Positions 56,729 through 61,152 of a stretch of DNA of 64,000 bases are shown in pieces. The stretch comes from Octopus sinensis (Eukaryota), in NCBI RefSeq assembly GCF_006345805.1, contig NC_043001.1, positions 76,880,001 through 76,944,000 on the forward strand, written 5' to 3'. The notes beneath the pieces were generated by a model. That model searched no databases, was not told where the DNA came from, and saw only the letters and a list, made by a program, of their open reading frames with translations. The number at the start of each line of letters is the position of its first letter. Position 1 is the first letter of the stretch. The position numbers and the translations under genes are program-made.

Positions 56729-57434
56729 GTGAGATTTTTTATTTACTTTATTTTATTTTATAATTTTTGTTTGCTTCTTTTTTGCGACTTTTTACTTTTT
56801 TACTTGTTTCAGTCATTAGACTACGACCATGCTGTGGCACTTCTTTGAAGGGTTCACTCAAACAAATTTATCCAGTGCTGTTTTTTTTTTAAGCCAGGTG
56901 CTTAGTCTTTTGATCCCTTTTGTGAAACTATTAGTTTGGTGATGTAAATAAATCAACATCTGTTGTCAAGTAGTGGTGAGGGATAAACAAAGACACACAC
57001 ACACACATGTATGATGGGCTTCTTTCTGTTTCCATCTATTAAATCCACTCACAAGGCTTTGGTCAACCCAGGGAGTTTTTAGCTTTCAATAAAATTAAAT
57101 AAAATTTCCAACCACTGTGCATGTAATTAGTGATTCTGTTATTGTACCTTTTGTTAATATAGTGAAGGCTATACTTCATCAATGAGGTCATAATAAGACT
57201 GAAATATGCCCACTGTTATCTCCCATATCCATTGAATTAATATATTATTTGTCATTTGAAGGTAGTGAATAACCAGAACTGTTAGCACATTGGACAAAAT
57301 GTTCAGTGAAATTTCTTCCAGCTGTTTATGTTCTGAGTTCAAAATCCACAATGGTTGACTTTGCTGTTCATTCTTTCAGGGTCAGTAAAATAAAGTACCA
57401 GTTGAGCACTTGGGAGATTAATTTAATAAATTTA

Positions 57435-57660: not shown

Positions 57661-57922
57661 GAACATGCGTTTGTATGCACAAGTACATCAGCTCGACTAA
57701 AGGTGGTGCTCCAACATGGCCACAATCAAATGACTGAAACAAGTAAAAGAGTAAAAGAGATATGCATCTCCTACCAAATGTTTCGAGTGCCACTTTCTTT
57801 CATTTGTCCTTTCACTTGTATATAAGTATATGTGTATATATAAATATGTATCTATATCTGATGTTTATAAGCCATTTTATGAAACACACAAAATCCGTTA
57901 GATTCACTTCAGCATTTAAATT

Positions 57923-57980
57923 GAATTTGTCAAAATATTTTCGTCGCTTTCTGACCGCAACCTGTTCACTGACAAAATTC
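57923..57980 (-). ncRNA. Hammerhead-like motif with G3-C8 swapped core (left arm)
   Basis: GAAUUUUGUCA-GUGAACA-g-GUUGC-ggucagaaa-GCGAC-GAAA-AUAU-UU^-UGACAAAUUC. Stem I is 10 bp, stem II is 5 bp and stem III is palindromic. Confidence 0.7.
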
Positions 57981-57999
57981 TGTGCTGAGTTGCAGCATG

Positions 58000-58057
58000 G
58001 AATTTCATCAGTGAACAGGTTGCAGTCTCAAAGCAACGAAAATATTTTGACAAATTC
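58000..58057 (+). ncRNA. Hammerhead-like motif with G3-C8 swapped core (right arm)
   Basis: gaatttcatca GTGAACA(58011-17) g gttgc agtctcaaa gcaac GAAA(58038-41) atat TT^ tgacaaattc. Confidence 0.65.
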
Positions 58058-58205
58058 AATTTAAATGCTGAAGTGAATCTAACAGATTTTGTGTTTCTTA
58101 AATGGCTTATAAACACCTTCCATGCTGCAATTGTTTTCGTTCCAGCTCAAGATTTCAGATCAAGTCACTTGCTATGCAAGTACATCTCCATAATATCTAT
58201 ATCTA

Positions 58206-58272
<67 letters not shown>

Positions 58273-58358
58273 ATATATGCTTTTGTGTGTGTGTGTCTAT
58301 AGCCCTGTCTATGTTCATTTAAATATTCTTCAATCTGTCCCCTTTGTTTCCATTTCAG

Positions 58359-58555
58359 ATTAAAAGTTTTTGACAATCTACCAGATATGTCGGTACTTCT
58401 TACCCCTAAACATGGGGCTTATGGTTACTTCCCTGGCGGCATCTATCGTGGGGTTCGAGACTACAACTCAACATACAACGAACTGAAACTGAATTATTTT
58501 GGACAACCAACACGAAACGCACCAGGGTTCAAATTGTTACTGACACCCTATAAAA
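58359..58555 (+). CDS. Exon: C-terminal half of the CUB-like domain
   Basis: Acceptor catttcag|A completes AG+A=Arg. Reads LKVFDNLPDMSVLLTPKHGAYG...DYNSTYNELKLNYFGQPTRNAPGFKLLLTPYK, with the CUB-type D-x-L-x-V-F-D start and GFKL end. Donor A|gtaaat, phase 1. Confidence 0.85.
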
Positions 58556-58623: not shown

Positions 58624-58707
58624 TATCATCATTATCATCATTATCATCATTATCATTATTATCATTATTATTATTATTATTATTATTATCATCATCATCA
58701 TTATTAA

Positions 58708-60515
58708 AAGGTGACTAGCTGGCAGAATTGTTAGTGTGCCAGGCAAAATGCTTTGCAGTATTTCATCTGTCTTTATGTTCTAAGTTCAGATTCTGCCGAG
58801 GTCAACTTTGCCTTTTATCCTTTTGGGGTCGATTAAATAAGTACCAGTTATGCACTGTTGTCGATGTAATCAACTTGATCTCCTTCCCCTAGCTGCACTT
58901 GTGGCAAAAGTTTGGAATAATAATAATAATTACTATGATTATTATCATTATCATGAGAAGGCAGTGAGCTAGCAGAATCGTTTGCACGCTGGATGAAATG
59001 CTTAGCAGTATTTTGCCTGTTTCTATGTTCTGAGTTCAATTTCCACCTAAATTGACTTTGCCTTTCATCCTTTTGGGGTTGATGAAATAAGTACCAGCAT
59101 AGGGATCTATGTAATTGACTAGCCCCCTTTCCCCCAAATTTTCAAGGCCTTGTGCCTAAGTACCAGTTACACACCAATGTAATCGACTTAATCCCTTCCC
59201 CCAAATTTGAGGCCTTGTGCTTCCTTCCAGTAGAAAGAACTATTACTATTATTATTATTATTATTATTAAAAAATGCTAAGCTGGCAGAATCGTTAGCAT
59301 GCTAGGCAAAATGCTTACTGGCATTTTGTCCATCTTTTACGTTCTAAGTTCAAATTCCACCATAGTTGACTTTGCCTTTCATCCTTTTGAGATCAGTAAA
59401 ATGAGTACCAGTTAAGTACTGGAGTTGATGTAACCAACTAACCTCCTCTCCCAAAATTGCTGGCCTTGTGCCAAAATTTGAACCATTGTTTAAGGTGGTG
59501 AACTGGCAGAATTGTTAGCGCATCATAGTGATATTTTGGACATCTTTACTTTCTGTGTTCAAATTCTGTCACGGTTGACTTTGCCTTTCATCCTTTCAGG
59601 GTCAATAAAATAAATACCACTTGAGTACTGGGATTGATGTAATTGACTCATCCCCTTCTTCAAAACTGCTGCCCTTGTGACACAATTTGAAACCGTTATT
59701 ATTACCTCTGCCTTACAAAGGCGGAGGTATTGTTTTCAGTCGTGTTTGTTTGTTTGTCCATGGACAAAATATCTCAAGAACCATTGGATGAATTTGGATG
59801 AAACTTTCAGGGATGTTTGGCTTTATGGCTGGCATGAACTGATTAGATTTTGGGATTGATCCAGTACTGGACAAAGATCTAGATTATTTTTCCTGTTTTT
59901 TAACTTAATTTTTGAGAGCGGTTAGGTTCATTTTTAGTATTCTCCTTTGTGAGAGCAGTCAAGTTTATTTCAAATATTCTCATTTTAAAAATTATCTCTG
60001 GCTAATCGTTGAGAGGATGTTGGTGTTGCCTCGGTGGAGGTTTACACTCTATGAGTGTTCTTATTATTAAAAGGCGGCAAGCTGGCAGAATCATTAGCAC
60101 GCTGGACAAAATGCTTAGTGGTATTTCATCCGTCATTACTCTCTGGATACAGATTCTGCCATGGTTGACTTAGCTTTTCATCCTTTCCGGGTTAATAAAT
60201 TAAGTACCAGTTAAACACTGGGGTCAATGTAATCAACTAGTCCCCTCCCCATAAATTTTAGGCCTTGTGCCTATGGTAGAAAGGATTATTATTATTATTA
60301 AGGTGGTAAACTGGCAGAATCATTAGCATTCAAAGCAAAATGCTTAGAGGCATTTTGTTCATCCTTACATTCTGAGTTCAAATTCCACCATGGTTAACTT
60401 TGCCTTTCTTCCTTTTGTGGTTGTTAAAATAGATACCAGTTATTCACTGGGATCAATGTAATCGATGTACCCACTCCACTGCATTTGCTGGTCTTGTACC
60501 AAAATTTGAAATCAT
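58708..60515 (+). mobile_element. Head-to-tail array of about six family A SINEs separated by (TTA)n
   Basis: Repeated head/core/tail units in the intron between the CUB and LDLa exons. Confidence 0.85.
59703..60062 (+). mobile_element. Helentron-associated (HINE/DINE-1-like) non-autonomous element
   Basis: 5' hairpin ACCTCTGCC-ttacaaa-GGCGGAGGT, (GTTT)n, 3' subterminal repeat GGTGGAGGT and terminal hairpin ACACTC-tat-GAGTGT. Inserted in a (TTA)n SINE tail. Confidence 0.6.
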
Positions 60516-60987: not shown

Positions 60988-61152
60988 GAGAAATTGCTCG
61001 AAATAAGTGTCCCGAAGGTTTTTTCCATTGTTCCATCCGACATATTTGTATTGATTCTTCTCTGGCATGTGATGGCTACCCAAACTGTGGCAGTAAAGAT
61101 GAAAGTGATGAGGGAAAATGCAGCTACTATGCCGAGGCACAGAAGTCAACAT
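60988..61152 (+). CDS. Exon: LDL-receptor class A (LDLa) module; gene continues past the window (CUB-LDLa, Neto/CULD-like architecture)
   Basis: Acceptor tttccag|, phase 1. CPEGFFHCSIRHICIDSSLACDGYPNCGSKDESDEGKC has six Cys and the acidic D-x-S-D-E motif of LDLa. Donor T|gtaagc. Confidence 0.92.

What the first reader, a model, noticed from the sequence alone, without database searches (positions are those of the whole stretch)
57862..58200. Palindromic insertion carrying two hammerheads with a natural G3-C8 core swap (GUGAACA)
Seen: a ~254-bp near-perfect palindrome (57862-58115). Each arm reads outward as stem I - GUGAACA - stem II - GAAA - palindromic stem III (AAUAUU) - UU^ - stem I. Relative to CUGANGA, exactly positions 3 and 8 are exchanged. 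Stem II differs between the arms while keeping its pairing (GUUGC/GCGAC versus GUUGC/GCAAC). Known: C3 and G8 form a tertiary Watson-Crick pair in the active hammerhead, and the C3G/G8C double mutant partially rescues activity. Inference: a retroelement family using a non-canonical HHR that CUGANGA-based searches would miss. The UUU cleavage triplet is also atypical.
Basis: partly seen in the sequence, partly recalled or inferred. Interest (0 to 1): 0.85.

Follow-up and report, generated by a model that had tools for sequence, protein, structure and literature searches.

The report
Retrotransposon hammerhead with swapped core pair
This palindrome is two back-to-back end pieces of an octopus-type Penelope-like retrotransposon, and each carries a hammerhead ribozyme motif whose two paired core letters are swapped (G3-C8 instead of C3-G8); it likely still cuts RNA slowly, which would make it a natural variant that standard searches miss, but cutting is untested.

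Summary
Observation confirmed: arms 88% alike, each with stem I, GUGAACA, one extra G, stem II, GAAA, palindromic AAUAUU, U^. The unit is the ~210-nt pseudo-LTR of an autonomous Penelope-like element (PLE; RT plus C-terminal GIY-YIG, Neptune/Nematis-type linker), found whole elsewhere in the genome; the inverted, one-tailed pair is the known PLE insertion form. The genome holds 4,930 exact G3-C8 motifs. The sister PLE family has C3-G8 at the same place (about 3,140), with compensatory changes in stems I, II and III. A search blind to positions 3 and 8 found Watson-Crick pairs in 20 of 23 related metagenome loci (C-G, U-A, A-U). So the swap is a real natural covariation in a homologous ribozyme. 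Corrections: the stem II difference between arms is CpG decay; UUU has precedent in PLE hammerheads; the two arms cannot act together, since read-through RNA folds into one hairpin. Against strict selection: unpaired G3-G8 copies are over-represented (188) and no copy starts at the cut. Natural U3-A8 is published; I found no natural G3-C8 in print, but could not read Lünse 2017. This scan noted similar motifs twice on other DNA (unchecked).

The parts
57987..58194 (+). Right arm: full pseudo-LTR unit of a Penelope-like element, from the G-AG-(A/T)TG 5' end to the tail end
   Evidence: Aligned with 29 other copies; same unit flanks the ORF in L220
57862..57987 (-). Left arm: inverted copy of the unit without tail, ending about 19 nt short of the usual first 3' end
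58001..58057 (+). Minimal type I hammerhead motif, G3-C8: core 58011-58017, extra G 58018, stem II 58019-58023/58033-58037, GAA 58038-58040, palindromic stem III 58041-58046, U17 58047; stem I has two mismatches in this copy
   Evidence: sequence, fold, pair counts
57926..57976 (-). Same motif on the minus strand: core 57969-57963, U17 57933, 7-bp stem I intact
58102..58194 (+). First 31 codons of the PLE ORF, ATG 54 nt after the predicted cut
   Evidence: read by eye against the N-terminus of P0001
58134..58194 (+). About 60-nt tail between the two preferred 3' ends (likely two reverse-transcription start sites)
   Evidence: 3' ends of 73 arms: 27 at +117..+131, 37 at +173..+185 from G3, 9 elsewhere
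58195..58300 (.). TA-rich microsatellite flank, the usual neighbour of this family
58359..58555 (+). Putative host exon 165 nt downstream (AG/GT borders, phase fits the LDLa exon 60988-61152): the insertion likely lies in an intron
   Evidence: sequence, ORFs, Pfam PF00057 E 2e-06 for the second exon, no hit for this one

Best explanation
The palindrome is a tail-to-tail-ended, head-to-head pair of pseudo-LTR copies of a Penelope-like retrotransposon, and the motif in each arm is that element's minimal hammerhead with the tertiary 3-8 pair reversed to G3-C8, which likely still self-cleaves slowly in the master element. Shown: the unit flanks an RT plus GIY-YIG ORF, lies 54 nt upstream of its ATG, and is positionally homologous to C3-G8, U3-A8 and A3-U8 hammerheads of related PLEs. 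Inferred: the swap arose once, on the branch to this family, from C3-G8, probably through a G3-G8 intermediate, and was kept because the pair geometry, not the letters, is needed. Inferred: two motifs in a tandem transcript pair through the palindromic stem III (or are helped by the element's protein) and cut after UUU, trimming or down-regulating the mRNA. Inferred: genomic copies come from uncleaved RNA, primed at two sites on the two nicked strands and joined at their 5' ends, which gives one tailed and one tailless arm. This window's copy is a decayed fossil, and in the likely host pre-mRNA both motifs would be locked in one long hairpin.
For: Parent: L220 is pLTR-ORF-pLTR with units 5.7 kb apart; L224 has a 1,042-codon open frame with TDKSG, YVDD, CX3CxxC linker and YQIKC..C..YIGE. 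Sister family B (57% protein identity, tree support 0.997) has CUGAUGC or CUGAAGA/CUGAUGA at the same place, with both-sided changes at 3-8, stem I, stem II and stem III. Genome counts for one pattern, n = 8,302: G3-C8 4,930, G3-G8 188, C3-C8 about 41 (hand count), C3-G8 about 3,143 by subtraction. A younger subfamily (L222, 84% protein identity) changed loop II in sequence and length but not the core or stems. Descriptor blind to 3, 8 and 9: motif on the ORF strand in 23 of 66 metagenome PLE loci (shuffles 0.4 per round), Watson-Crick 3-8 in 20 of 23, or 16 of 18 distinct (11 C-G, 4 U-A, 1 A-U). C3G/G8C partly restores cleavage in a PLE hammerhead, which needs protein and is bypassed in transposition (PMC11167929). 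10 of 10 independent inverted pairs have exactly one tailed arm.
Against: No cleavage data. G3-G8, inactive as a mutant in vitro, is the commonest change at position 8 (188 of 338 non-C8 matches, some of them family-B decay), occurs with every loop subfamily and in a linked set of long copies, so a mismatched master probably transposed. 0 of 73 arms begin within 2 nt of the predicted cut; 53 begin upstream of G3. The commonest family-B core has C9 instead of A9, and L258 has G4, which suggests relaxed constraint. Two of 18 distinct metagenome motifs are unpaired at 3-8. The A-versus-B covariation is a single evolutionary event, and the A/B pseudo-LTR local alignment score alone does not beat shuffles (27 against a maximum of 38); homology rests on position, protein tree and structure. 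Metazoan minimal hammerheads are weak even with a canonical core (PMC4209133).
Confidence: 0.68

Rival explanations
1. Vestigial hammerhead: same PLE origin, but the motif no longer cuts; the stems are kept as a protein-binding or folding element and the G3-C8 pair is drift or weak structural selection.
For: G3-G8 copies over-represented and apparently mobile; no copies start at the cut; catalytic mutants do not impair insertion in vitro and no RNA-seq ends map to the cut in the anole PLE (PMC11167929); C9 in family B.
Against: All other catalytic letters (U4, G5, A6, A9, G12, A13, A14, A15.1, U16.1) are unchanged between subfamilies while loop II turned over; a second change that exactly restores the 3-8 pair has a prior of about 1 in 3 given one change there; four different Watson-Crick pairs in the clade.
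Confidence: 0.26
2. A non-autonomous retrozyme- or SINE-like element in which the two hammerheads of the palindrome work together to release a small RNA.
For: Thousands of short copies; 18 of 30 core-selected loci have an inverted partner; one palindromic copy was secondarily amplified (9 of those 18).
Against: The motifs lie on opposite strands; a read-through RNA holds only one in sense, with stem I and II pair probabilities of 0.0; junctions differ from copy to copy; the unit runs into a PLE ORF.
Confidence: 0.04
3. A MITE or miRNA-like hairpin in which the motif is chance.
For: Long hairpin; Rfam gives only a sub-threshold MIR6140 match and no hammerhead.
Against: Asymmetric ends, 12 of 30 loci with a single arm, parent RT ORF, canonical hammerheads at the same place in relatives; Rfam also misses those.
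Confidence: 0.02

Closest known systems
Minimal type I hammerheads (min-HHR) of metazoan Penelope-like elements (Cervera and de la Pena 2014, PMC4209133)
   Same: In the pseudo-LTR; extra nucleotide between 9 and 10.1; G10.1-C11.1; palindromic short stem III; NUH with frequent U17; opposite-strand pairs of motifs; natural 3-8 covariation (U3-A8).
   Different: G3-C8. All 56 rows of its Fig. S3 begin CUGA or UUGA. The extra nucleotide is G (consensus H; one row has G).
Poseidon PLE of Anolis (PAc; Frangieh et al. 2024, PMC11167929)
   Same: Hammerhead next to the ORF start; two reverse-transcription starts inside the ORF that define the tail; AT-rich targets; engineered C3G/G8C partly active.
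   Different: There the swap is a laboratory mutant and the cut is inside the ORF; here it is the natural sequence, the cut is 54 nt upstream of the ATG, the tail is about 60 nt, and the protein has the CX2-5CxxC linker that Poseidon lacks.
EN+ PLEs of the Neptune/Nematis type (Craig et al. 2021, PMC8557442)
   Same: RT, CX2-5CxxC linker, C-terminal GIY-YIG with CCHH, tandem and inverted 5'-truncated copies, one-sided tail, (TA)n targets.
   Different: Their hammerheads are described as canonical; that study's core descriptor was cuganga, which would miss this one.
Natural core variants of hammerheads (Perreault et al. 2011, PMC3088659)
   Same: Compensatory change of the 3-8 pair seen in nature.
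   Different: The passages read name U3-A8 only, as rare cases; here G3-C8 is a whole high-copy family.

Membership tests
EN+ Penelope-like element | Single ORF with PLE-type RT followed by GIY-YIG endonuclease with CCHH motif | tested here: met
   L224 frame of 1,042 codons with TDKSG, YVDD, YQIKC..C..YIGE, two downstream His, motifs read by eye; Pfam gives only weak RVT_1 (E 0.0019 family B, 0.029 family A piece) and no GIY-YIG
EN+ Penelope-like element | Pseudo-LTRs from tandem copies | tested here: met
   L220 unit-ORF-unit; unit reads into the ORF
EN+ Penelope-like element | Inverted 5'-truncated partner and a tail on one end | tested here: met
   10 of 10 independent inverted pairs one-tailed; tail about 60 nt, longer than the 30-40 nt in print
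EN+ Penelope-like element | Retained intron near the 5' end | tested here: inconclusive
   Branch point, pyrimidine tract and AG just upstream in 50 long copies; no donor or spliced exon identified
Neptune or Nematis clade | CX2-5CxxC linker before the endonuclease | tested here: met
   CX3CxxC in L224; definition from PMC8557442
Neptune or Nematis clade | Placement in an RT tree with named reference elements | not testable with these tools
   No named PLE references held; tree has unnamed relatives only
Minimal type I hammerhead | Literal CUGANGA core | tested here: not met
   GUGAACA
Minimal type I hammerhead | Watson-Crick pair between 3 and 8, other core letters intact | tested here: met
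   G3-C8; U4, G5, A6, A9, G12-A14, A15.1-U16.1 present
Minimal type I hammerhead | Stems I and II, G10.1-C11.1, extra nucleotide after 9, palindromic stem III, NUH | tested here: met
   58 of 60 cells paired in a five-row alignment
Minimal type I hammerhead | Self-cleavage after position 17 | not testable with these tools
   Only contigs were available
Rfam hammerhead families | Match to a covariance model | tested here: not met
   No hit here, nor for L222, L251 or the canonical-core L257: the miss is not specific to the swap
Retrozyme or MITE | Fixed non-coding unit with direct-repeat hammerheads, or symmetric terminal inverted repeats | tested here: not met
   Variable junctions, asymmetric ends, coding parent

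The most novel reading that the evidence does not exclude
An active natural hammerhead that uses C8, not G8, at the general-acid position, fixed in a retrotransposon family with about 5,000 near-intact motifs and invisible to CUGANGA searches; with the A3-U8 relative found here, one PLE clade has used all four Watson-Crick pairs at 3-8, possibly to tune cleavage rate down, and the G3-G8 copies preserve the evolutionary intermediate.
Probability: 0.45. Interest if true: 0.68.

Novelty: new variant of a known kind. Interest (0 to 1): 0.52.

Why it matters
It gives natural, phylogenetic support for the 3-8 tertiary pair with the combination so far seen only as a laboratory rescue mutant, and shows that fixed-core descriptors miss whole high-copy ribozyme families, which bears on claims that some PLE clades lack hammerheads. 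Sister families with C3-G8, G3-C8 and G3-G8 in one genome make the open question of what PLE hammerheads do directly testable: if cleavage matters, activity should track the pair. The element type, the palindromic insertion form and minimal hammerheads themselves are known.

Tried and rejected
Rfam: no hammerhead hit. First PLE family probed through a fragment beside L013 was a different family without this unit. Tandem hits on C2 were segmental or secondary amplifications, not parents. Second G3-C8 family with another stem II in this genome: 27 matches against 20 for the control, mostly SINE-derived or decayed family A; none found. Within-family conservation of core versus flank: no useful difference. 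Peak of 5' ends at the cut: none. Expression: no RNA holder listed on record; 20 runs of 8 studies and 4 coded organisms hold part of the unit, all as contigs, so no ends or strand can be read; in the four runs laid, no other letter at 5% or more was listed in the core, which does not prove sameness. Cofolding favoured loop II or stem swaps and does not model the stem III dimer: no evidence either way. tblastn of the L224 protein (which lacks the N-terminus) against the window: no hit. Literature for natural G3-C8: searches gave only engineered variants (PMC11167929, PMC8495972, PMC3884650); Lünse et al. 2017 and two other papers were not held, so their text and supplements may already list this variant. 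Supplement file 1 of PMC4209133 was not searchable.

Full report
Observation. The window holds an inverted repeat at 57862-58115, 87.9% identical over 257 columns. Each arm reads outward as stem I, GUGAACA, an extra G, a 5-bp stem II closed by G10.1-C11.1, GAA, AAUAUU, U, then stem I. G3 is at 58011 (+) and 57969 (-). The right arm goes on for about 80 nt beyond the palindrome. Rfam reports no hammerhead.

Family. The window lies in a 2.7-Gb genome; the best protein relatives of the element are named Octopus vulgaris, so I infer an octopus. A DNA search gave 82 matches from 40 scored of 5,345 candidates. A 35-nt core pattern matched 1,494 times and a 23-mer downstream of the cut 3,723 times, controls 0. 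Of 30 core-selected loci, 12 hold one arm and 18 an inverted pair; 9 of the 18 are one secondarily amplified copy. In all 10 independent pairs exactly one arm carries the last 60 nt. Among 73 arms chosen by the downstream anchor (amplified subfamily dropped), 3' ends fall in two clusters (27 and 37, 9 elsewhere), 53 begin upstream of G3 and none within 2 nt of the predicted cut. Junctions at the palindrome centre differ between copies. This is the PLE pattern of an inverted 5'-truncated partner with a one-sided tail (PMC8557442, passages), and fits two reverse-transcription starts (PMC11167929, parts 1-2 of 4 read).

Parent. Some copies extend upstream through a microsatellite-rich stretch ending in branch point, pyrimidine tract and AG. 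Following it led to RT and GIY-YIG coding pieces upstream and to an ORF that starts inside the unit (P0001). L220 is unit-ORF-unit; L224 has a 1,042-codon open frame with TDKSG, YVDD, a CX3CxxC linker and YQIKC..C..YIGE, the Neptune/Nematis layout. Pfam support is weak. The window holds only the first 31 codons (58102-58194, read by eye). Of 22 distinct short arms with AG before the ATG, 19 have G at -3, against C or T in all 50 long arms; I infer a copied cap at a start site there, but a very short spliced exon is not excluded.

Is the swap real? A younger subfamily (L222, 84% protein identity) keeps core and stems while loop II changed in letters and length. A sister family (57% identity; support 0.997) has at the same place CUGAUGC, or CUGAAGA/CUGAUGA, then G, a related stem II, GAAA, a 2-bp stem III and UU^. 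In a five-row alignment 58 of 60 cells pair and five pairs change on both sides: 3-8, one each in stems I, II and III between families, and one CpG double decay in the window's right arm. For one pattern with C or G at 3 and 8 (n = 8,302): G3-C8 4,930, G3-G8 188, C3-C8 about 41 (hand count of the 93 rows), C3-G8 about 3,143. These counts reflect one evolutionary event. Independent lineages came from 66 metagenome loci: a descriptor blind to 3, 8 and 9 found a motif on the ORF strand in 23 (2 on the other strand, 0.4 per shuffle round), with a Watson-Crick 3-8 pair in 20; among 18 distinct motifs 11 C-G, 4 U-A, 1 A-U, 1 U-U, 1 G-G. None was G3-C8. On the tree of 36 rows with at least 250 aligned residues, the nearest relatives are C3-G8 or U3-A8, so G3-C8 is derived.

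The stem II difference between arms is CpG decay, which breaks the pair more often than it compensates (12 C-A against 1 U-A of 100). U17 is common in PLE minimal hammerheads, and the Crassostrea row reads U-U-U (PMC4209133 supplement 2, parts 1-2 of 3, columns not preserved); relatives here have UUU twice among 18. The two motifs are on opposite strands; a read-through RNA of either strand folds into one hairpin (-174.5 and -189.4 kcal/mol) with stem I and II probabilities of 0.0. The insertion likely lies in an intron of a plus-strand gene with an LDLa exon, where this hairpin would protect the host transcript.

Mechanism. Shown: position, homology, covariation. From print: metazoan minimal hammerheads cleave weakly and as dimers (PMC4209133, parts 1-2 of 4); in the anole PLE the single mutants are dead, C3G/G8C is partly active, protein is needed, and uncleaved RNA is the main template; G8C costs 10^5-fold and C3G partly restores it (PMC8495972, one passage). 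Inferred: the master element's motif cuts slowly after UUU, 54 nt upstream of the ATG, in tandem transcripts, trimming or limiting the mRNA; insertions come from uncut RNA.

Against. G3-G8 is the commonest change at position 8 (188 of 338 non-C8; about one in six of the first 100 are family-B decay), several times the reciprocal C3-C8, and 14 of 191 local arms carry it, some sharing linked variants. Either a mismatched master transposed, or the site is a hotspot. Family B often has C9. Both suggest loose selection, so a vestigial motif remains possible (0.26). No RNA evidence could be had.

Novelty. Natural U3-A8 is published (PMC3088659, passages; PMC4209133). Six searches found G3-C8 only as an engineered variant (PMC3884650, two passages). 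Lünse et al. 2017, the largest PLE hammerhead survey, was not held. Other papers seen: PMC6765202 (passages), PMC2377424 (passages). Two earlier notes of this scan describe similar motifs behind PLE RTs in other genomes (unchecked); none matched this sequence. Verdict: new variant of a known kind, interest 0.52.

Noticed in passing
L273:1709 (+): PLE hammerhead motif with A3-U8 (AUGAAUA), a fourth Watson-Crick combination; single metagenome contig.
   Followed up: partly
L251:660-718; L259:2497: C9 instead of A9 in the commonest family-B core and in an unrelated U3-A8 motif: a second recurrent core variant.
   Followed up: partly
G000-wide; L173, L186, L204, L205, L208, L210: G3-G8 copies over-represented, some with a shared loop variant; possible retained intermediate between C3-G8 and G3-C8.
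   Followed up: partly
window 57987-57989 and many loci: Short copies begin with an extra G before AG-ATG (19 of 22), where long copies have C or T: possible copied 5' cap or tiny exon.
   Followed up: partly
L031, L033, L034, L043, L052, L055-L058, L061, L064: One palindromic copy was captured in another repeat and amplified secondarily, with identical flanks.
   Followed up: no
window 58359-58555 and 60988-61152 (+): Two putative exons of a host gene, the second an LDLa domain; the 254-bp hairpin in the intron could be an A-to-I editing substrate (inference from general knowledge of cephalopods).
   Followed up: partly
L086-L088: A different intact PLE family with 778-codon frames; no hammerhead found by my descriptor in those loci.
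   Followed up: no
window 57325-57410, 58700-59700: Several copies of a SINE-like repeat around the element.
   Followed up: no
L258 (downstream of ORF): Hammerhead-like motif with G4 (CGGACGA), closely related to the canonical one in L257.
   Followed up: no
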